Positions 16,600 to 27,024 of a stretch of 64,000 nt of DNA are shown here, piece after piece; positions within the stretch are counted from its first letter, which is position 1, and every line of letters starts with the position of its first letter. The DNA is from Shigella phage vB_SdyM_006: the sequence record MK295204, one strand, 5' to 3'. The notes beneath the pieces are model-generated. The model was given only the letters and a program-made list of their open reading frames with translations. It was not told the DNA's origin and searched no databases. A program made the position numbers and the translations under genes.

Positions 16600-16961
16600 T
16601 AGTGTCCCTTAAAGATGTCAAAAATACTAAAACCTTTTTTAACTTCAGTATTTTCAATTTGTGTTTTAATACATTTTTCTATGTGAGGTTCTAAAATATC
16701 TTTAGGTAAATCAGAAAGCGTAGAATAATCATATTCTACTTTACCGTTTTTAATATCTATAGAATGGATATACACTAAGTGTGGAGTATTATTGATTAAT
16801 ACAATTATTTCTTGGATAACATTTTTCATAGATTCTTTAACAACTTCTAATGACTTTTCATATATCTCTTGGTCATTTCCGATGTCATCAAGAATCTTAA
16901 ATTCTTGGTCAAAGTTTTGCATAGATATAGTTTCCGCAGTCCCAAATTCGTCGAAGACCAT
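16599..16961 (-). CDS. hypothetical protein (gene 40 position)
   Basis: 120 aa, ATG start; lies between gene 41 and the uvsX side as gene 40 does in T4; sequence not recognised. Confidence 0.3.
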   Translation of the reverse strand: MVFDEFGTAETISMQNFDQEFKILDDIGNDQEIYEKSLEVVKESMKNVIQEIIVLINNTPHLVYIHSIDIKNGKVEYDYSTLSDLPKDILEPHIEKCIKTQIENTEVKKGFSIFDIFKGH

Positions 16962-18288
16962 TATTATAACAGTTTTCTACTTCAGTTAATTTAGGATTAA
17001 AATAGTTAAGTTTATCTTTTAATTTATGTTTCATAAAAGACGATCGATGATATAACTTATCCTTTACAACATAATAATAACATGGTTCTGTTGTTCCAAT
17101 ATAAGTAAGGGCTAGTTTATTATACACATTACCTTGAGACCATCGTCTATTGGCATAAGATATAAACGATAAACCATTAAGAAGTCTAGAAGCTCCGCCA
17201 ACAACAGTATGTCCTATTTTAGAACATAATCTAAGAAGTTCTAGGTCATAATTATTATTATATCTAGTTTTACCTAAAACAGCCACTTGGACTAGTTCAT
17301 TATTATAAAATAGGCCTTTGTATATCGAACCAGGGCATTTTCCTTGTAAATGATTCTGTTCAACGAACTCATTAGCAAGCTGCTTATCTATATCCTTTAA
17401 TTCACACTTACGAGCATAAATTCTTTTAGATAACCCAAGTTTGTTTTTTATGACAGATTTCCATATTTCTTTTTTAATAGGGTCAATCCATTCGCTTTCA
17501 AAAATATGAAGAAGATGTATTCCTTTAGATTCACATAATTCGGTTTTATCTAAATGATACTTAGATAATCGTTTATCATCTTCTTTTGTTCCTGAAGAAT
17601 GCCAATAAATGCCATTAAATTCTATTGCCAGGGAATGACCAGGAACATAAATATCTAATTCATATGGTAATATAACTTGTTTAGTGTTGTGTTCACAGGA
17701 CACACCTAGAGAACACACGTAGTCATATACTTCTTGTTCTAATTGAGATTTTCCTGATAATGATTTAATAGGATACCCATGTTTTTCCATGAACTTAAAA
17801 GCAGAGGAATGAGAATTTAAAGATAGTCCAAAATGCTCAGCAACATAAGTCCAATGTTTATTTGATAAAGATTCCATTATCTCTTTATTTTTTATGTCAT
17901 CCAGGTTTTTATATTCCAATTGTAGTGGATGTTCACCTAGATTATATTTCTTTCCTCCCCATTTTCGTTGTTTACCGTATTTAGAAACACACGTTGCTTT
18001 TGTTTTGTCTTGGACTTTTTTAGATTTAATAGAACATCTATTAGAACAGACTTCAAGAAGTTTATTTCTATATACAATAACTGGTTTACCACAATGGCAT
18101 TTAGGTATATCATTAGAACAATTTATTCCATTTTCAAGAAACACAACAACCTGGGGTAAAGACACCCCAGGAAAGTTTTTAGTTATTTCTTGAAATAAGT
18201 CTTTACGGTTCTTTTCTAGCCAGGCTAAATTTCTTTTAGAAACTAATCGCCCATTAGAATAGCATAAAGATTTTATTTCATTTATCAT
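16909..18288 (-). CDS. putative freestanding nuclease (homing-endonuclease-like), Cys-rich N-terminus plus Vsr/DUF559-like PD-(D/E)xK motif
   Basis: 459 aa inserted between uvsX and gene 40 (absent in T4 there); CHCGKP...CSNRC; ELDIYVPGHSLAIEFNGIYWHS resembles Vsr-type endonuclease core; ATGA coupling to uvsX. Confidence 0.4.
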   Translation of the reverse strand: MINEIKSLCYSNGRLVSKRNLAWLEKNRKDLFQEITKNFPGVSLPQVVVFLENGINCSNDIPKCHCGKPVIVYRNKLLEVCSNRCSIKSKKVQDKTKATCVSKYGKQRKWGGKKYNLGEHPLQLEYKNLDDIKNKEIMESLSNKHWTYVAEHFGLSLNSHSSAFKFMEKHGYPIKSLSGKSQLEQEVYDYVCSLGVSCEHNTKQVILPYELDIYVPGHSLAIEFNGIYWHSSGTKEDDKRLSKYHLDKTELCESKGIHLLHIFESEWIDPIKKEIWKSVIKNKLGLSKRIYARKCELKDIDKQLANEFVEQNHLQGKCPGSIYKGLFYNNELVQVAVLGKTRYNNNYDLELLRLCSKIGHTVVGGASRLLNGLSFISYANRRWSQGNVYNKLALTYIGTTEPCYYYVVKDKLYHRSSFMKHKLKDKLNYFNPKLTEVENCYNNGLRRIWDCGNYIYAKL

Positions 18289-19436
18289 AGTTCGTCCATA
18301 GCATTAAGTTCTTCAATAGTAGAACGAATACCAGATGAACCAAAAACGTGTTCTTCCACTTTTAGATTCATTAAGTCTTCAACTTCTTGTTCTACTGATT
18401 CGTCATTAATCATCTGTCCTAATTTATAACGTGTTTCAATAGCTTCACGGAACGGGCCATGTTTTAATAATGGTCCCCAGAATGCTACGCATCTTGTATC
18501 TTTAGCACGCCAATTCTTTTCTTCAGGAACGATTTCACCCGTTTCTGTGTCTAAAAATGCTTGAGTATACCAGCCATTTTTAGGTTTAACAACAAATCCT
18601 AATTCCAGACCCATATCAAGCAAACCAGAATAAGGGTCAATACCGCCATCAAATGTGACATCAATAAAGAATTTAGATTTTTCTTTAACTGTACGTGATT
18701 TTTCGACATTTAATACAAATTGATAACCTTGAAGATCTGTACCATCTTTAATTTGACGTCGACCAATAATATATACATTATCAGCAGAATACATTACACC
18801 TGTTCCGCCTGTCATAACAGTTTTACTAAACATTTCCATTGTTTCAATTGTATGGTTAATCCCGACACATGGAATATCTTTTAATGTAAAATATGGAGTG
18901 GCCATACGGAACAATGATTTTAACTGCTTGGCCCGTGTCATATCTGCAACAGATTTTTCATTTAATGCATCTTCAACTTCTTTCTTAGAAGCCAGGTTAC
19001 CAATAGAGTCGATAAATACAATAACCTTTTCACCTCGTTCAATAGTTTCTAATTGATTAATCATATCAATTTTAAGTTCTTCAACGTTTTTAACTGGTGT
19101 ATGAACAACACGGTCTGGGTCAACACCCATAGAACGAAGATAAGCACTTGTGATACCAAATTCTGAGTCATAAAATAAGCAAATTGCATCTTTATATGCT
19201 TTCATATAAGCAGCAACTAATGTTAAACCCATATTTGATTTAAAGTGTTTACTTGGACCAGCTAAAATAGTAATACCAGATTGAAGGCCACCTGTGATAT
19301 CACCGGACAATGCAATATTTAATGTTGGAATTTTAGTTCTTACAACAGACTTCTCATTAAAAAACTTTGATTCACTAAGTACAGAAGTCATTTTATTTGT
19401 TGAAGCTTTCATTAAACGTGTTTTTAAGTCTGACAT
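18285..19436 (-). CDS. uvsX: UvsX recombinase (RecA/Rad51-like)
   Basis: 383 aa; MSDLKTRLMKASTNK...ILAGPSKHFKSN...near-collinear with remembered T4 UvsX. Confidence 0.9.
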   Translation of the reverse strand: MSDLKTRLMKASTNKMTSVLSESKFFNEKSVVRTKIPTLNIALSGDITGGLQSGITILAGPSKHFKSNMGLTLVAAYMKAYKDAICLFYDSEFGITSAYLRSMGVDPDRVVHTPVKNVEELKIDMINQLETIERGEKVIVFIDSIGNLASKKEVEDALNEKSVADMTRAKQLKSLFRMATPYFTLKDIPCVGINHTIETMEMFSKTVMTGGTGVMYSADNVYIIGRRQIKDGTDLQGYQFVLNVEKSRTVKEKSKFFIDVTFDGGIDPYSGLLDMGLELGFVVKPKNGWYTQAFLDTETGEIVPEEKNWRAKDTRCVAFWGPLLKHGPFREAIETRYKLGQMINDESVEQEVEDLMNLKVEEHVFGSSGIRSTIEELNAMDEL

Positions 19437-19490: not shown

Positions 19491-20405
19491 TTAGATTTCC
19501 CAAATTGGGCCTTGAACTATAATATCTTCGTATTTAGGTAATGCATAAATGCATTGTACATTACATTTAAAATATATAAATTCTGCTAAACCTGGATGGA
19601 ATACTTTTTCTGGGTTTTCTTCATATATGATAGTTGGTTTAGACTTCAATGCATGGTAATAATTAGGCTTATTTAATTTTAATAATTCACAATCAGGATA
19701 TTTTTCTTTATCCCAAGAATCATTAGGGTCTGTTATAACCAATTTCAAATCATATCTTTTACATAGTTTATACACATAATCAAAATCATAACATTTATCT
19801 GATATCCTAAACGGAAAGAATACTGTATTCTTCCAATCAAAGTCTATACAAGATTGTTGCATAAACTTCTCAGGAACACCAGGACGAATTACTTCTTGTG
19901 TGACAAGTATTTTATCACTATACGCCCCATAACTAACTAGAACGTCTTTCTGGCACTTATTTAAGACTGTTGTATAGATACTTGAGTTAACAGATTCAAC
20001 ATCAGTATAAATGAACTCGTCTATATATGATCTTGGATTCAAAGGGTCTTTAGTAATATTAAAATTATAAAATACTGGAAAGGTTCCTTTATATCCTGTT
20101 ATATCAGAAACTACTGCATCTAAATGGTAAAATTCGGCAATAGAATCGATAATAAATGTATTATATTCCCAGAAATATTTTCGAGTTTTATATGCATTTT
20201 CTTGATAAACAACTTCTTCAAAAATCACGTTAGGAAAATATTCTTTAAGTTCAGTTATATCTTCGCATTGTAAACTATGAGGAATTACAATTACATCTCC
20301 ATCTTGGTACCGATTTAAATGTAATTGAAGATTACCGTCTTTTAACAGGGAGTATTTCCCTGTTTTATAAGACCTCATAGAATAGATAGGCACAATTAAA
20401 TTCAT
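19491..20405 (-). CDS. hypothetical protein in beta-gt position (candidate transferase, unproven)
   Basis: 304 aa, ATG start; occupies the slot of beta-glucosyltransferase next to gene 42 but shows no resemblance to remembered T4 beta-gt. Confidence 0.3.
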   Translation of the reverse strand: MNLIVPIYSMRSYKTGKYSLLKDGNLQLHLNRYQDGDVIVIPHSLQCEDITELKEYFPNVIFEEVVYQENAYKTRKYFWEYNTFIIDSIAEFYHLDAVVSDITGYKGTFPVFYNFNITKDPLNPRSYIDEFIYTDVESVNSSIYTTVLNKCQKDVLVSYGAYSDKILVTQEVIRPGVPEKFMQQSCIDFDWKNTVFFPFRISDKCYDFDYVYKLCKRYDLKLVITDPNDSWDKEKYPDCELLKLNKPNYYHALKSKPTIIYEENPEKVFHPGLAEFIYFKCNVQCIYALPKYEDIIVQGPIWEI

Positions 20406-20415
20406 AATTATTCTC

Positions 20416-21108
20416 TTATAGAAATGAATTTACATATTCTATATCACGTTCAAAAATATGCGCAGAAACCATTGAATGTGTGTAATGGCCAATTTCTACG
20501 TTACATTCTGAAGCAATATATTCCATTAATTTACCTTGTAAGTAAATATCAAGTTGTAATACTATAGCACAATTTTGAGAACGCATATGAGTATGGGCAT
20601 ATAATTTATTATCACGAATATAATATGTGACAGAATCAGTACATGGATATTCCAATGTTTCGTCGTCAAGTGATAATAATGCTTGGTCTTGTTCTTGAAG
20701 AATTTGAAAAACAACACGTCTCGAACCAGGTTTTTCTTTAAGTTCTTTAAGTAAAACTGGAAGTTGAGCTACAATACGAGGACCATAGAATGTATTGAAG
20801 TTTTCTGGAAGGATATCGCTTTTAGGCTTATCAATAAATTTAGCAACATTAGGATATTCTTTAAATGCTTCAATAGCGTTGGTCCCACCAGAAATCATAA
20901 ATTGCCAGAAATCTTCTGCGTACTTATAATCAATACGGTTTATTTTTTCGTCACTAAATTTATATGTAGAAGGGTCCATTACACGAAATGTTAATGACCC
21001 TATTTCTCTACATGGCCCAATACGAGAATCTACTTTAAATTCATATAGATCAATAACGGTTTCATTAACAGCTTTAAAAGCTTCTTCAAAAGTATTTCTG
21101 ATAATCAT
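20416..21108 (-). CDS. 42: dCMP hydroxymethylase-like (thymidylate synthase superfamily) gp42
   Basis: 230 aa; EYPCTDSVTYYIRD (active-site Cys region) and RSQNCAIVLQLD resemble gp42/TS motifs; position as T4 gene 42. Confidence 0.7.
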   Translation of the reverse strand: MIIRNTFEEAFKAVNETVIDLYEFKVDSRIGPCREIGSLTFRVMDPSTYKFSDEKINRIDYKYAEDFWQFMISGGTNAIEAFKEYPNVAKFIDKPKSDILPENFNTFYGPRIVAQLPVLLKELKEKPGSRRVVFQILQEQDQALLSLDDETLEYPCTDSVTYYIRDNKLYAHTHMRSQNCAIVLQLDIYLQGKLMEYIASECNVEIGHYTHSMVSAHIFERDIEYVNSFL

Positions 21109-21479
21109 AACATTTCCTGTAATTTTTTAGAGTAATTCATTAAAAACACTAATAATGGTTGTGCCTCTGGTGGTGTTTGTTGTAATTTTTTAGATTCAAC
21201 GACACCATTATACACTGGAAATCCTTTAGCCTTTTTGGTTTGACCTATTTTAATGGCTAATTTATTACGTGCATTAAACAATTCGATCATTTGTTTATCT
21301 ATTTCTTGAATAGCTTTACGATCTTCGTCTAATGTGTCTTTAACATGCCCTTTTAATTGTTCTTTTAATTGTTCTTTGATTAATCTTTGATTACATTCTT
21401 TAATAAATCCTTTAGGAAACGGTGGTACTTCTATCCCAGGATAAATAGGCCAAACCGGTGCGCCATCTATATGATGCAT
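21105..21479 (-). CDS. chorismate mutase-like (AroQ class) protein
   Basis: 124 aa; residues ~45-124 DRKAIQEIDKQMIELFNARNKLAIKIGQTKK...YSKKLQE align to AroQ catalytic positions (R, R, K, E, S, Q); ATGA coupling with gene 42. Confidence 0.45.
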   Translation of the reverse strand: MHHIDGAPVWPIYPGIEVPPFPKGFIKECNQRLIKEQLKEQLKGHVKDTLDEDRKAIQEIDKQMIELFNARNKLAIKIGQTKKAKGFPVYNGVVESKKLQQTPPEAQPLLVFLMNYSKKLQEML

Positions 21480-21664: not shown

Positions 21665-21873
21665 TATTTACCTACTATTTTGCCAGTTTCTGGTCCTTCA
21701 TACAAAGTGGACTTTACTATAAAGTCACTTAACCCTTTATTATATCTTTTAAACTTTGACACTTCAGAATCACATATTAATTGAGCTAGATTCTCTTGAT
21801 ACATCATTAAGCAGGGAATAACCCTGCTTAAAAAGGTTTTCTTTGTATTAATTTTCTGGATATCTTGATTCAT
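21664..21873 (-). CDS. hypothetical protein
   Basis: Track start is GTG at 21882; first ATG at 21873; overlaps 3' end of next ORF. Confidence 0.25.
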   Translation of the reverse strand: MNQDIQKINTKKTFLSRVIPCLMMYQENLAQLICDSEVSKFKRYNKGLSDFIVKSTLYEGPETGKIVGK

Positions 21874-23014
21874 CGTCAGCACCGTCTAAAACTTTAATTT
21901 CAATTTCGTCTGGACGACGATCATTTTTAGATAATTGACGTTTATAATATCGTTCACAATATTTACAAGTCGTTCCGCAGATTTCGTTAGCACAATCAAA
22001 ATCAGGGTGTTTAAACCATCGTTTCTCTAAAAATCCATCTAACAATGATGTTTCTAAATACACCTGGTGTTCATGATCTAATTCTGATTTACCATTATAA
22101 ATTGTTTCTAATGGTTTCCAAAGTTCAAGTAAATTACCTGTGAATTGTTCTGATGCATAGGCTTCTAGAACTTTAACAATATATTCTGTTGTGCCTGTAC
22201 GTCCAGAAACTTTAAATTGAGAAATACCAATAGAACGATATAACTCTAAATCTTGTGGACGAACAAATCGAGTTCTAAGCCAGTTAAACGGGTCTGTATC
22301 ACGGGCTTTAATACAATGTTGCATTGGATATCCACCTAAAGATTGAGCATCTTCAGCTGTTATATCTGTAGAATGGAAAATATAACAAGAATCTCTGTAA
22401 GAACAGTGTGTTGTATATCCTTTACCAGCATTAGAACAAAATTCATTAACTAAGACTTCAAAAATAATATTATTTTTATTACAGAACTCAGCTGCACGTT
22501 TTAAGAACGAAACACTTCGGTTTTTATGAATACCACAACAAACTTTTTTAATATTATATTGGTCATGAAGATATTTTATTTGTGTGACAGCATCAACGTG
22601 TAGAATAGTCGAAACTTCAAATTGAATATGTTTATTTACTTCACGGATGATTTCCATAATAATTGGATTGGCAACAGTCACACGATAAACGCCAATACTC
22701 CATAAATATTGAACATAATCTTGGATGGCTTTCTTTTTCCAATCCTGTAGTTCACGTTTAGAGCCAGGGTTAATCGTGTTCAAAGTATAGTTGAAACATA
22801 TTCCTAAATCATTACAACGTTGTACGTATATTTCTAGTTGTTCGTCTTTGACATCCGGTAATCTAAAATCTGGTCGTGCTGCAGCAAAAGCCATTGCACG
22901 TGTACTTCCATAAACTTCATTAATAACACTATTAGGATATTTTTCGTTTAATTCAACGATTTTATCAAGTAAAGCCAAATCAAAATTTGTTCCTACTTTA
23001 AATGTATTTTTCAT
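21848..23014 (-). CDS. peptidase U32-family-like protein (RlhA/TrhP/UbiU-type, candidate Fe-S hydroxylase)
   Basis: Track start TTG 23032 lies in terminator hairpin; ATG at 23014 has AAGGA Shine-Dalgarno; GISQFKVSGRTGTTEY resembles U32 signature G[VI]xx[FL]K[IV]EGR; EFCSNAGKGYTTHCS Cys motif; C-terminal CxxxxCxxxCxxC. Confidence 0.45.
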   Translation of the reverse strand: MKNTFKVGTNFDLALLDKIVELNEKYPNSVINEVYGSTRAMAFAAARPDFRLPDVKDEQLEIYVQRCNDLGICFNYTLNTINPGSKRELQDWKKKAIQDYVQYLWSIGVYRVTVANPIIMEIIREVNKHIQFEVSTILHVDAVTQIKYLHDQYNIKKVCCGIHKNRSVSFLKRAAEFCNKNNIIFEVLVNEFCSNAGKGYTTHCSYRDSCYIFHSTDITAEDAQSLGGYPMQHCIKARDTDPFNWLRTRFVRPQDLELYRSIGISQFKVSGRTGTTEYIVKVLEAYASEQFTGNLLELWKPLETIYNGKSELDHEHQVYLETSLLDGFLEKRWFKHPDFDCANEICGTTCKYCERYYKRQLSKNDRRPDEIEIKVLDGADDESRYPEN

Positions 23015-23030
23015 TTTAGTCCTTATTACC

Positions 23031-23049
23031 AAAAAGGCCTTTCGGCCTT
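23031..23049 (-). terminator. intrinsic terminator hairpin (AAGGCC-GAAA-GGCCUU plus U-run)
   Basis: aaaaaggcctttcggcctt; near-identical copy at 47483-47502. Confidence 0.55.
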
Positions 23050-23259: not shown

Positions 23260-23819
23260 AATTGTCCTAATTTCGTGTTAATATAATTTGTTACATCTGC
23301 ATAAGAATAACCAGATAGAACATTATTATTTGAATCATGTTCTAATAACTTAAAATTTCTAATACCAAATTCTTCATAAAACATGTCATACACCGTAATG
23401 ATATCATTGAACTGTTCTTTTGATAACTTAATTAAGTCATCTTCAAAATCAGAATTAATTTTATTTCTAGTTAATCCGATAACCAAACATTTGTTTTTTA
23501 AATTAATAAGGTCCATAACATAATTATTAAATGTTTCTTGAGTCTCTTTAATAACAAATGATTTACCATGGTGTTTACGATAGATATAATAAACCATATT
23601 ACTTAAAAAGCAACGGTCTAATATATACTTTTTAGATGGGTCTAAATGATTTAGCATTGTATCAAAAATTGCTACTTCATTACGAGTAGCAATAGTAAAT
23701 AATCCATCTGAAGTTTTCTTAGGGAACTCTAATAAAGTAAATCCTTCATTATTGATTAAGTGTTGTATTAGAGTTGTTTTACCAGTATTATCAGGTCCTT
23801 CAATAGCAACAATATTCAT
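23256..23819 (-). CDS. P-loop kinase (thymidylate/nucleoside-kinase-like)
   Basis: 187 aa; MNIVAIEGPDNTGKTTL Walker A at N-terminus typical of small nucleotide/sugar kinases; ATGA coupling. Confidence 0.5.
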   Translation of the reverse strand: MNIVAIEGPDNTGKTTLIQHLINNEGFTLLEFPKKTSDGLFTIATRNEVAIFDTMLNHLDPSKKYILDRCFLSNMVYYIYRKHHGKSFVIKETQETFNNYVMDLINLKNKCLVIGLTRNKINSDFEDDLIKLSKEQFNDIITVYDMFYEEFGIRNFKLLEHDSNNNVLSGYSYADVTNYINTKLGQL

Positions 23820-24193
23820 TTTATCTCCGGAGTATATGGTTTGGCCGATTCTAAAGTAGACATTCTAACATGGTTTTTAAATGTTTGTGGGTCCATTGCT
23901 TTGTCATCGATAATCCAGTCATAAGATGGTTTATGGGTCAAAAGCTCATGATATTTCAATCCAATTTTATTAAGATTAATAACGAGTCCAGGAACTATTT
24001 CTGATGCTATTTTACCAGGTCCAACAGAAGTCATACCACGAGAAGTATAAAGTGTGATATGATGGCCCTGGTCGTACAGGGCGTTAATCATAGCTACCAT
24101 TTCTTCATCAGGTACAAAGTTCTCATAATCTCTATTATTATTCCATAATGTGATTGTATTATCAATGTCAAAAAACAGTTTTAAAGGTTTCAT
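23816..24193 (-). CDS. HAD-superfamily phosphatase
   Basis: 125 aa; LFFDIDNTIT = HAD motif I DxDxT; ATGA coupling with flanking genes. Confidence 0.55.
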   Translation of the reverse strand: MKPLKLFFDIDNTITLWNNNRDYENFVPDEEMVAMINALYDQGHHITLYTSRGMTSVGPGKIASEIVPGLVINLNKIGLKYHELLTHKPSYDWIIDDKAMDPQTFKNHVRMSTLESAKPYTPEIK

Positions 24194-26519: not shown

Positions 26520-26969
26520 TTATTTTTTCTCGCAAAGTTTCTTTAATGTAGGAATGTCATACTTAACAACCTGAGAATAATCACCAGTTGTCATTGCATT
26601 TTGTTGCATAACACGGTATGTGATAACAGCTCGTTGATAACAATTGAGCTCAACTTTTTTAGGTTGTTCCATTGGAGGAAGATTTCTATCTTTAGCTAAT
26701 TGAGCGTCAACTCGTGCTGAAGCTTCTGCGATTTCAGCACGAACACGTAATCTGTCTGCTTCTCTTTTGGCATCAAGTTGACGTTCTAATTCAGCTCTAG
26801 ATTGATATTGTGGATTTTTATTAAAATAAGCGATTCCATTAGATGTTGATGCTAACTGCCCAGATTGTTGCATTCTAGCTTCACGTTTAGCTTTATAAGC
26901 TTCGTATTCAGCTTGGCTCATACATCCAGTCATAGTTAAACAAATAAGGCCGATTAAAATGTGTTTCAT
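26520..26969 (-). CDS. predicted lipoprotein
   Basis: Track start TTG; ATG at 26969 with GAGGAG Shine-Dalgarno; MKHILIGLICLTMTGC signal plus lipobox; Ala/Arg/Gln-rich mature part. Confidence 0.45.
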   Translation of the reverse strand: MKHILIGLICLTMTGCMSQAEYEAYKAKREARMQQSGQLASTSNGIAYFNKNPQYQSRAELERQLDAKREADRLRVRAEIAEASARVDAQLAKDRNLPPMEQPKKVELNCYQRAVITYRVMQQNAMTTGDYSQVVKYDIPTLKKLCEKK

Positions 26970-27024
26970 AATATGTCTCCTCAATAAATTTAATCGGAAC
27001 TATATCACTTATTTTGTGTCAGCA

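What the first reader, a model, noticed from the sequence alone, without database searches (positions are those of the whole stretch)
19491..20405. Unassigned 304-aa protein in the beta-glucosyltransferase slot: candidate novel DNA sugar transferase
By synteny the gene between uvsX and gene 42 should be the DNA glycosyltransferase, but this protein does not resemble T4 beta-gt at sequence level. If the island makes an unusual NDP-sugar, a dedicated transferase is required and this is the best positional candidate. This is inference only; no GT motif was confidently recognised.
Basis: inference. Interest (0 to 1): 0.5.

Follow-up and report, generated by a model that had tools for sequence, protein, structure and literature searches.

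The report
Predicted first sugar transferase for 5-hydroxycytosine DNA
This phage gene sits where T4 keeps its DNA glucosyltransferase and is predicted to fold like a sugar transferase, but it belongs to a family that 2025-26 papers already proposed adds the first arabinose to 5-hydroxycytosine (not hydroxymethylcytosine), an activity nobody has yet shown.

Summary
The ORF is real: 19491-20405, minus strand, 304 aa, 100% identical to gp174 of Proteus phage phiP4-3. It lies between uvsX and a thymidylate-synthase homologue, in the T4 beta-gt slot.

It is the orthologue of RB69 ORF046c+047c, DLP3 gp79 and Thanatos TH1_063. Lee et al. (NAR 2026) proposed this family as "arabinosyltransferase 1" and named Bragaviruses among the carriers.

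The neighbouring enzyme carries the D169N signature of 5-hydroxy-dCMP synthases, so the acceptor should be 5-hydroxycytosine, and the donor should be UDP-D-arabinofuranose made by the island.

What I add:
- The family co-occurs one-to-one with that synthase.
- phiP4-3 has no other detectable glycosyltransferase, so mono-arabinosylation is predicted.
- The family overlaps, and is sometimes fused to, a thymidylate-kinase-like gene. This leaves open that the first sugar goes onto the free nucleotide rather than DNA.

Activity is unproven; one orthologue was reported as a UDP-xylose pyrophosphorylase. This is a new member of a known, still putative, kind.

The parts
19491..20405 (-). Target gene: 304-aa GT-B-fold protein (phiP4-3 gp174). 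It is the orthologue of RB69 ORF046c+047c, DLP3 gp79, Thanatos TH1_063 and HY126 XAN60474. Predicted base-proximal (first) alpha-D-arabinofuranosyltransferase acting on 5-hydroxycytosine.
20416..21108 (-). Thymidylate-synthase homologue of the 5-hydroxy-dCMP synthase type, which makes the acceptor base.
   Evidence: PF00303; 73% id to the HY126 enzyme; PDB 9iqc/9iqu/9ir2 E 1e-110; C146 kept, D169N, N177D, while T4 gp42 keeps D169; signature defined in PMC13326640.
23256..23819 (-). Thymidylate-kinase-like P-loop protein (PHROG 761). In other phages it directly adjoins, overlaps or is fused to the target family; here it is displaced by about 2.9 kb within the island.
   Evidence: PHROG 761 E 9.6e-36; adjacency in HY126, Thanatos, DLP1, L007, L009 and phiM9; GT-Tmk fusions P0219, P0224, P0246 and the EGFDRIGKD P-loop in 9 fusion proteins.
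23816..24193 (-). HAD phosphatase, AfhF-like (Araf-1,5-bisphosphate to Araf-1-P).
   Evidence: PHROG 1238 E 3.5e-37; 64% id to the HY126 protein; function of the HY126 enzyme as reported in PMC13326640.
24190..25839 (-). Bifunctional NTP-transferase + kinase, AfhE-like (arabinose-5-P kinase / UDP-arabinose pyrophosphorylase).
   Evidence: PF00483 at residues 3-81 and kinase-family hits at 330-407; PHROG 4098 E 6.8e-243; 51% id to the HY126 protein; function as reported in PMC13326640.
25887..26519 (-). SIS-domain arabinose-5-phosphate isomerase (Ru5P to Ara5P).
   Evidence: PF01380 E 1.7e-10; PHROG 5670 E 1.8e-108; 71% id to the HY126 protein.
21848..23032 (-). Peptidase-U32-family protein. 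It is an accessory member of the island and its role is unknown.
   Evidence: PF01136 E 5.3e-11; PHROG 5757; 221 phage records, 214 of them at 80-90% identity, absent from Acinetobacter phages.
21105..21479 (-). Chorismate-mutase-like protein. It is lineage-specific, found only in Proteus, Providencia and Morganella phages.
   Evidence: PF01817 E 9.5e-11; NCBIfam chorismate-mutase models, below their cut-offs; 10 phage records only.
18285..19436 (-). UvsX recombinase, the downstream boundary of the island.
   Evidence: PF21134 E 1.7e-34 and PF00154.

Best explanation
The gene encodes a divergent GT-B-fold, retaining-type glycosyltransferase that installs the first, base-proximal sugar on 5-hydroxycytosine. 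In the proposed pathway, the neighbouring ThyA homologue hydroxylates dCMP to 5-hydroxy-dCMP. The island's isomerase, AfhE-like kinase/uridylyltransferase and HAD phosphatase convert ribulose-5-P into UDP-D-arabinofuranose. The target binds that donor in its inter-domain cleft and transfers alpha-D-Araf to the 5-OH of 5-hydroxycytosine, by default after the base is in replicated DNA. phiP4-3 lacks the second, gp3-type transferase, so its DNA is predicted to carry only mono-arabinosyl-5-hydroxycytosine. Shown here: the fold, the orthology, the synteny, the co-occurrence and the absence of other glycosyltransferases. Inferred: the donor, the acceptor, the stereochemistry and the timing.
Against: No family member has shown transferase activity. 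DLP3 GTs tested one at a time, gp79 among those cloned, gave no arabinosylation of 5hoC-DNA with UDP-Araf or UDP-Arap (data not shown in PMC13326640). The Thanatos orthologue TH1_063 gave UDP-xylose from UTP + xylose-1-P and no transfer to (unhydroxylated) DNA, dCMP or dCTP. There is no sequence-level link to any GT family: Pfam at E <= 10 for 66 members, profile against PDB, hhalign against the gp3 family at probability 0.14%. The canonical GT4 EX7E motif is not present as such. The family is acidic (median pI 5.4) whereas T4 beta-GT is basic, though one DNA-active DLP-type GT is equally acidic. Two key papers (He et al. 2026, Mahler et al. 2025) could not be read.
Confidence: 0.68

Rival explanations
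1. Same enzyme class, different acceptor and timing. The protein glycosylates the free nucleotide (5-hydroxy-dCMP) before replication. The associated Tmk-like kinase then phosphorylates arabinosyl-5hodCMP, and the sugar enters DNA through the polymerase.
For: The Tmk-like gene is the family's most constant neighbour: adjacent or overlapping in HY126, Thanatos, DLP1, L007, L009 and phiM9. It is fused to the family in at least 9 representative proteins, in either order. The T4 gp1-type dNMP kinase already converts 5hodCMP to 5hodCDP and phiP4-3 has one (gp129), so the Tmk-like kinase has no assigned substrate. Lee et al. state they cannot tell whether the first arabinosylation is on the mononucleotide or after replication, and saw no activity of single GTs on 5hoC-DNA. 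Loss of UDP-sugar synthesis is near-lethal in Thanatos. The family is acidic.
Against: Gene adjacency and fusion show functional linkage, not consecutive steps; HAD phosphatase fusions also exist. 5hodCTP is incorporated into DNA in E. coli, so a DNA acceptor exists. The distal arabinoses are added on DNA, and all known phage DNA glycosylation is post-replicative. In phiP4-3 itself the kinase is not adjacent to the target. The charge argument is inconclusive.
Confidence: 0.2
2. The protein is a UDP-pentose pyrophosphorylase that makes the activated sugar, as reported for the Thanatos orthologue, and the real transferase is something else.
For: TH1_063, 47% identical and syntenic, produced UDP-xylose from UTP + xylose-1-phosphate in vitro. 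The AfhE-like TH1_060 did not under the same conditions (PMC12838424).
Against: The fold is GT-B, not the nucleotidyltransferase fold. The island already has an NTP-transferase domain protein, and its HY126 homologue was shown to be the UDP-arabinose pyrophosphorylase. No other transferase candidate exists in phiP4-3. The observed product could arise from a reversible GT-B reaction (sugar-1-P + UDP) or a co-purifying host enzyme; this last point is my inference.
Confidence: 0.06
3. The protein is a GT-B-fold enzyme that is not a transferase to the base. Options are an NDP-sugar 2-epimerase-like or sugar-remodelling enzyme, or a transferase for a non-nucleic-acid acceptor.
For: The top Foldseek PDB hits are UDP-GlcNAc 2-epimerases (E 7.6e-7 to 1e-5). 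There is no canonical GT4 sequence motif.
Confidence: 0.05

Closest known systems
RB69 gp46:47 / DLP3 gp79 / HY126 XAN60474 ('arabinosyltransferase 1' of Lee et al., NAR 2026, PMC13326640)
   Different: The Tmk-like kinase is displaced rather than adjacent. phiP4-3 has no second, gp3-type GT, so mono- rather than di- or tri-arabinosylation is predicted. The island has an extra chorismate-mutase-like gene. Function is putative in all of them.
Shewanella phage Thanatos TH1_063 (PMC12838424)
   Same: 47% identical, syntenic, and the sole GT-fold protein in a phage that Lee et al. describe as mono-arabinosylated.
   Different: It was reported as a UDP-xylose pyrophosphorylase in vitro, with no transfer seen on unhydroxylated acceptors. 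No arabinose-5-P isomerase homologue was found among TH1_057-066.
Pootjesviridae RL38J1 gp215 / phiM9 gp269 ('galactosyltransferase 1')
   Same: phiM9 gp269 is a distant family member (HMM E 9.6e-34). The same overlapping order is found there: D169N ThyA homologue, GT, Tmk-like gene.
   Different: The base-proximal sugar is galactose, not arabinose. Identity to the target is only about 26%.
T4 beta-glucosyltransferase (and T4 alpha-glucosyltransferase)
Retaining GT4-type GT-B glycosyltransferases (sucrose-phosphate synthase 6kih, BshA, MshA, PimA)
   Different: No match to Pfam Glycos_transf_1 or Glyco_trans_4 even at E <= 10. It is shorter (304 aa against about 360-400). HPGxx[E/D] replaces EX7E.
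RB69 gp3 / HY126 GT (PDB 9iqz) / DLP3 gp76, gp77 (distal arabinosyltransferases)
   Different: It is an unrelated family at sequence level (hhalign probability 0.14%). It is restricted to Escherichia, Shigella and Acinetobacter phages and absent from phiP4-3. DLP3 gp76+gp77 together add the third arabinose on DNA.

Membership tests
PHROG 3891 / RB69 gp46:47-DLP3 gp79 family (putative 5hoC arabinosyltransferase 1) | Full-length sequence homology to RB69 ORF046c+047c, DLP3 gp79-type proteins and TH1_063 | tested here: met
   PHROG 3891 E 3e-138 over residues 2-303; 51% to HY126, 47% to TH1_063, 42% to DLP1-type proteins; BFVD hits RB69ORF047c and ORF046c.
PHROG 3891 / RB69 gp46:47-DLP3 gp79 family (putative 5hoC arabinosyltransferase 1) | Located beside a ThyA homologue with the D169N 5hodCMP-synthase signature | tested here: met
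   The adjacent gene 20416-21108 has C146, D169N and N177D; T4 gp42 keeps D169.
PHROG 3891 / RB69 gp46:47-DLP3 gp79 family (putative 5hoC arabinosyltransferase 1) | Co-encoded UDP-arabinofuranose pathway (API, AfhE-like, AfhF-like) | tested here: met
   All three are present and 51-71% identical to the HY126 proteins.
PHROG 3891 / RB69 gp46:47-DLP3 gp79 family (putative 5hoC arabinosyltransferase 1) | Transfers arabinose from UDP-Araf to 5-hydroxycytosine | not testable with these tools
   This needs biochemistry. It is unproven for every member in the literature I could read.
GT-B glycosyltransferase superfamily (GT4-like) | Two Rossmann-like beta/alpha/beta domains with an inter-domain cleft | tested here: met
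GT-B glycosyltransferase superfamily (GT4-like) | Sequence match to GT4 models (Pfam Glycos_transf_1 / Glyco_trans_4) or to a GT4 family profile | tested here: not met
   No GT family at E <= 10 for any of 66 members; no PDB sequence hit with the family profile; hhalign against the gp3 family gives probability 0.14%.
GT-B glycosyltransferase superfamily (GT4-like) | EX7E donor-binding motif in the C-terminal domain | tested here: inconclusive
   The family has invariant H270, P/G 271-272 and E/D275 at the equivalent helix start, but no first Glu. No coordinates were available for superposition.
T4 beta-glucosyltransferase (GT63) | Sequence or close structural similarity to T4 BGT | tested here: not met
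T4 beta-glucosyltransferase (GT63) | Gene between uvsX and the ThyA-superfamily (gene 42) locus | tested here: met
T4 beta-glucosyltransferase (GT63) | Acceptor is 5-hydroxymethylcytosine | tested here: not met
   This is indirect. The phage's ThyA homologue has the 5-hydroxy-dCMP synthase signature, not the hydroxymethylase one.
NDP-sugar pyrophosphorylase (nucleotidyltransferase) | Nucleotidyltransferase fold / NTP_transferase domain | tested here: not met
   The fold is GT-B. The NTP_transferase domain lies in the separate 549-aa protein.
UDP-GlcNAc 2-epimerase family | GT-B-like fold with epimerase catalytic residues | tested here: inconclusive

The most novel reading that the evidence does not exclude
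The family is a nucleotide-level glycosyltransferase. It arabinosylates free 5-hydroxy-dCMP and hands the product to its dedicated, often fused, Tmk-like kinase, so a glycosylated dNTP is polymerised into DNA. That would be pre-replicative DNA glycosylation, unlike every known phage DNA sugar modification. It would also explain why single GTs were inactive on 5hoC-DNA in vitro.
Probability: 0.2. Interest if true: 0.8.

Novelty: new member of a known kind. Interest (0 to 1): 0.4.

Why it matters
Arabinosyl-5-hydroxycytosine is a recently recognised DNA hypermodification that shields phages from restriction enzymes, some CRISPR systems and DNA glycosylases. The enzyme that attaches the first sugar is the one step of the pathway still without biochemical proof.

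phiP4-3 and its Bragavirus relatives appear to be a minimal system with a single candidate transferase and no distal transferases. That makes them a clean place to test the activity.

The tight coupling to a thymidylate-kinase-like gene gives a concrete, testable alternative: glycosylation of the nucleotide rather than of DNA. For genome annotation, several hundred 'hypothetical proteins' (PHROG 3891) could be given a provisional function.

Tried and rejected
- **Family libraries.** Pfam, PHROGs and NCBIfam scans of the target gave no functional family. Pfam at E <= 10 on all 66 aligned members gave only scattered chance hits.
- **Profile searches.** The family profile against PDB sequences found nothing. 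A profile-profile comparison with the gp3/9iqz GT4 family gave probability 0.14%.
- **Charge test.** Net charge and pI as a proxy for DNA binding were inconclusive, because one DNA-active DLP-type GT is as acidic as the target family.
- **Fusion contexts.** The contigs carrying the fusion proteins P0219 and P0141 are only 1.8-2.5 kb, so they give no context. Single-sequence phmmer of island proteins against the fusions detected only the GT domain; PHROG profiles and motif inspection were needed to identify the partners.
- **Literature.** He et al. 2026 (Nat Chem Biol) and Mahler et al. 2025 (Cell Host Microbe) are not held, and the AfhA-D names were not found in any held paper. I therefore cannot exclude that the HY126 orthologue has been characterised there.
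- **Transcription signals.** Promoter-like matches are at chance level (53 observed, 54.5 expected), so no transcription start is claimed.
- **Structure limits.** No model coordinates were available, so I could not superpose the model on GT4, AGT or epimerase active sites. Residue roles are assigned from secondary-structure position only.
- **Rejected reading.** That the gene is a diverged T4 beta-gt: there is no sequence similarity, and its structural neighbours are retaining GT4-type enzymes.

Full report
**Observation.** It starts 10 nt after the stop of the upstream gene, behind an AGAG Shine-Dalgarno-like element. No terminator-like site separates it from its neighbours, and promoter-like matches in the region are at chance level. 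Downstream lies UvsX (18285..19436). Upstream lies a thymidylate-synthase-superfamily gene (20416..21108). T4 itself has the order uvsX - segA - b-gt - 42, so the gene does occupy the beta-glucosyltransferase slot. The window is 99.3% identical to Proteus phage phiP4-3, genus Bragavirus. The protein is identical to gp174, YP_010093776.1, which every public source calls 'hypothetical protein'.

**Sequence methods see nothing.** The target matches no Pfam or NCBIfam family. None of 66 diverse family members reaches any glycosyltransferase model even at E <= 10. A family profile finds no solved structure by sequence. The only sequence-level label is PHROG 3891, 'unknown function', at E 3e-138. 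The family is compact. It comprises 118 clusters in the 5.8-billion-protein set, 269 representatives at E <= 1e-3 among 1.84 billion proteins and 352 phage records.

**The fold is a glycosyltransferase fold.** An AlphaFold2 model built on a 66-sequence alignment is very confident (pLDDT 96.1, pTM 0.91) and shows two Rossmann-like halves.
- Foldseek against the PDB returns only GT-B proteins. These are UDP-GlcNAc 2-epimerases at about 1e-6, plus MshA, HepE and BshA with TM-scores up to 0.6.
- In the viral structure library the best hits are an Acinetobacter phage KARL-1 orthologue (TM 0.92), RB69ORF047c (54% identity) and RB69ORF046c (45% identity).

**This family is already in the literature.** Lee et al. 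(NAR 2026, PMC13326640) show that RB69 and Acinetobacter phage DLP3 carry arabinosylated 5-hydroxycytosine, not arabinosyl-hmC.
- The ThyA homologue is a flavin- and O2-dependent 5-hydroxy-dCMP synthase, recognisable by Asn at E. coli ThyA position 169.
- RB69 ORFs 46 and 47 are one gene split by a sequencing error.
- Bragaviruses are named among the clades with the conserved cluster.
- The assignment is not experimental. Only DLP3 gp76+gp77 (acting together, adding the third arabinose on DNA) and the synthases are marked as confirmed.
- Single GTs gave no activity on 5hoC-DNA. [quoted passage not shown]
- A later paper from June 2026 still calls these enzymes putative.
- He et al. 2026 and Mahler et al. 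2025 could not be read.

**The window's island matches that pathway.**
- The ThyA homologue keeps Cys146 and has D169N and N177D, whereas T4 gp42 keeps Asp169. Its best PDB matches are the 2025 entries 9iqc, 9iqu and 9ir2 at E 1e-110.
- The isomerase, AfhE-like bifunctional enzyme, HAD phosphatase, Tmk-like kinase and U32 protein are 39-83% identical to those of HY126.
- The acceptor should therefore be 5-hydroxycytosine and the donor UDP-D-arabinofuranose.

**New comparative evidence.**
1. The family and the 5hodCMP-synthase type of ThyA co-occur essentially one-to-one: 352 against 342 records. Counts match for the main genera: Escherichia 177/177, Acinetobacter 57/57, Klebsiella 26/26, Shigella 14/14, Proteus 7/7, Yersinia 6/6.
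2. The second transferase type (RB69 gp3, the protein solved as 9iqz) is confined to Escherichia, Shigella and Acinetobacter phages.
3. The complete phiP4-3 genome has no annotated glycosyltransferase. It has no homologue of T4 AGT, T4 BGT, RB69 gp3 or the DLP-type GTs. The gp3 and alpha-gt slots hold only small ORFs, and the larger unannotated proteins have no Pfam GT domain. The target is therefore the only detectable candidate, and mono-arabinosylation is predicted.
4. The trio of D169N synthase, family member and Tmk-like protein, with overlapping genes, recurs in Sinorhizobium phage phiM9 of the Pootjesviridae. The related RL38J1 has galactose as the proximal sugar. The family thus tracks the hydroxylated base rather than a particular sugar.
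5. Conserved residues sit in loops just after beta-strands in both halves, where GT-B enzymes bind the NDP-sugar: S9-M-R-S12, D23-G-N25, F-R200-x-S-D203, T-D-P-N228, K246 and H270-P-G-x-x-[E/D]275. The assignment of roles is by position only.

**A lead on mechanism.** The gene most tightly tied to the family is the thymidylate-kinase-like gene (PHROG 761).
- It is adjacent or overlapping in HY126, Thanatos, DLP1, a Pol III-alpha-type metagenomic phage (L007), a 216-kb phage contig (L009) and phiM9.
- It is fused to the family in at least nine representative proteins, in either order, with an intact EGFDRIGKD P-loop. Another eight representatives are fusions with a HAD phosphatase.
- The T4 gp1-type dNMP kinase already phosphorylates 5hodCMP, and phiP4-3 has one. 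The Tmk-like kinase therefore lacks an assigned substrate.
- This keeps open that the first sugar is added to 5hodCMP and the kinase acts on the glycosylated nucleotide. I rate this at about 0.2.
- Linkage does not prove consecutive steps. 5hodCTP is incorporated into DNA in E. coli, and the distal sugars are added on DNA.

**Verdict.** The gene is a new member of a family that is already described but still putative. Its biochemical activity, acceptor form and stereochemistry remain to be shown. phiP4-3 appears to be a minimal, single-transferase system in which to show them.

Noticed in passing
window 21848-23032 (U32), window 21105-21479 (chorismate mutase-like), L013:33007-33969 (phiP4-3 gp052, outside the window): The island holds a peptidase-U32-family protein next to a chorismate-mutase-like protein, and elsewhere the phage encodes a bona fide DAHP synthase (TIGR00034 E 1.6e-116). 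From my own knowledge, U32-family enzymes such as RlhA, TrhP and UbiU/V are O2-independent, prephenate-dependent hydroxylases, and RlhA makes 5-hydroxycytidine in rRNA. DAHP synthase plus chorismate mutase would supply prephenate. This suggests an oxygen-independent route to 5-hydroxycytosine alongside the O2/flavin ThyA-type synthase. The NAR paper labels RB69 gp50 a 'sugar or heterocycle reductase' and never mentions U32 or prephenate.
   Followed up: partly
window 21848-23032; L007:9002-10105: The U32 protein is by far the most conserved island gene: 80-90% identity in 214 of 221 phage records, and 81% even to Shewanella phage Thanatos-2, against about 51% for the target. Yet it is absent from the Acinetobacter phages. 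In a Pol III-alpha-type metagenomic phage it sits directly after the Tmk-like gene and the family member, with no ThyA homologue within 8 kb.
   Followed up: partly
window 21105-21479: The chorismate-mutase-like ORF occurs only in phages of Proteus, Providencia and Morganella (10 records), always beside the ThyA homologue. It has a weak match (E 1e-4) to Thanatos TH1_066, which lies next to that phage's U32 gene.
   Followed up: partly
proteins P0141, P0162, P0164, P0171, P0183, P0186, P0195, P0215 (metagenomic): These are natural fusions of a KdsC-like HAD phosphatase (motifs DFDGIF, ITGDS, GDDxYD) to the N-terminus of the target-family domain. They may point to variants that use a different activated sugar. 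The contigs checked were too short to show context.
   Followed up: partly
L009:605-1745: In a 216-kb phage contig the island also contains a Flavodoxin_2 (NAD(P)H-dependent flavin reductase-type) gene next to the SIS isomerase. It could supply reduced flavin for the flavin-dependent 5hodCMP synthase.
   Followed up: no
window 16909-18288: A 459-aa ORF between the gp40-like gene and uvsX is annotated as a Hef-like homing endonuclease. It has weak hits to the Mom protein family (E 3e-5, below the cut-off) and to REase_MTES_1575. A bidirectional terminator-like hairpin lies inside it at 18150-18171.
   Followed up: no
window 26520-26984: A 154-aa ORF lies between the arabinose-5-P isomerase and the DNA polymerase. 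Its N-terminus looks like a lipoprotein signal (…LICLTMTGC…), and it has no HY126 counterpart.
   Followed up: no
L013:20481-22387 (phiP4-3, outside the window): The phage's conventional thymidylate synthase (td) appears split into two annotated fragments flanking a homing endonuclease gene. This looks like an intron or intein-type arrangement, as in T4 td.
   Followed up: no
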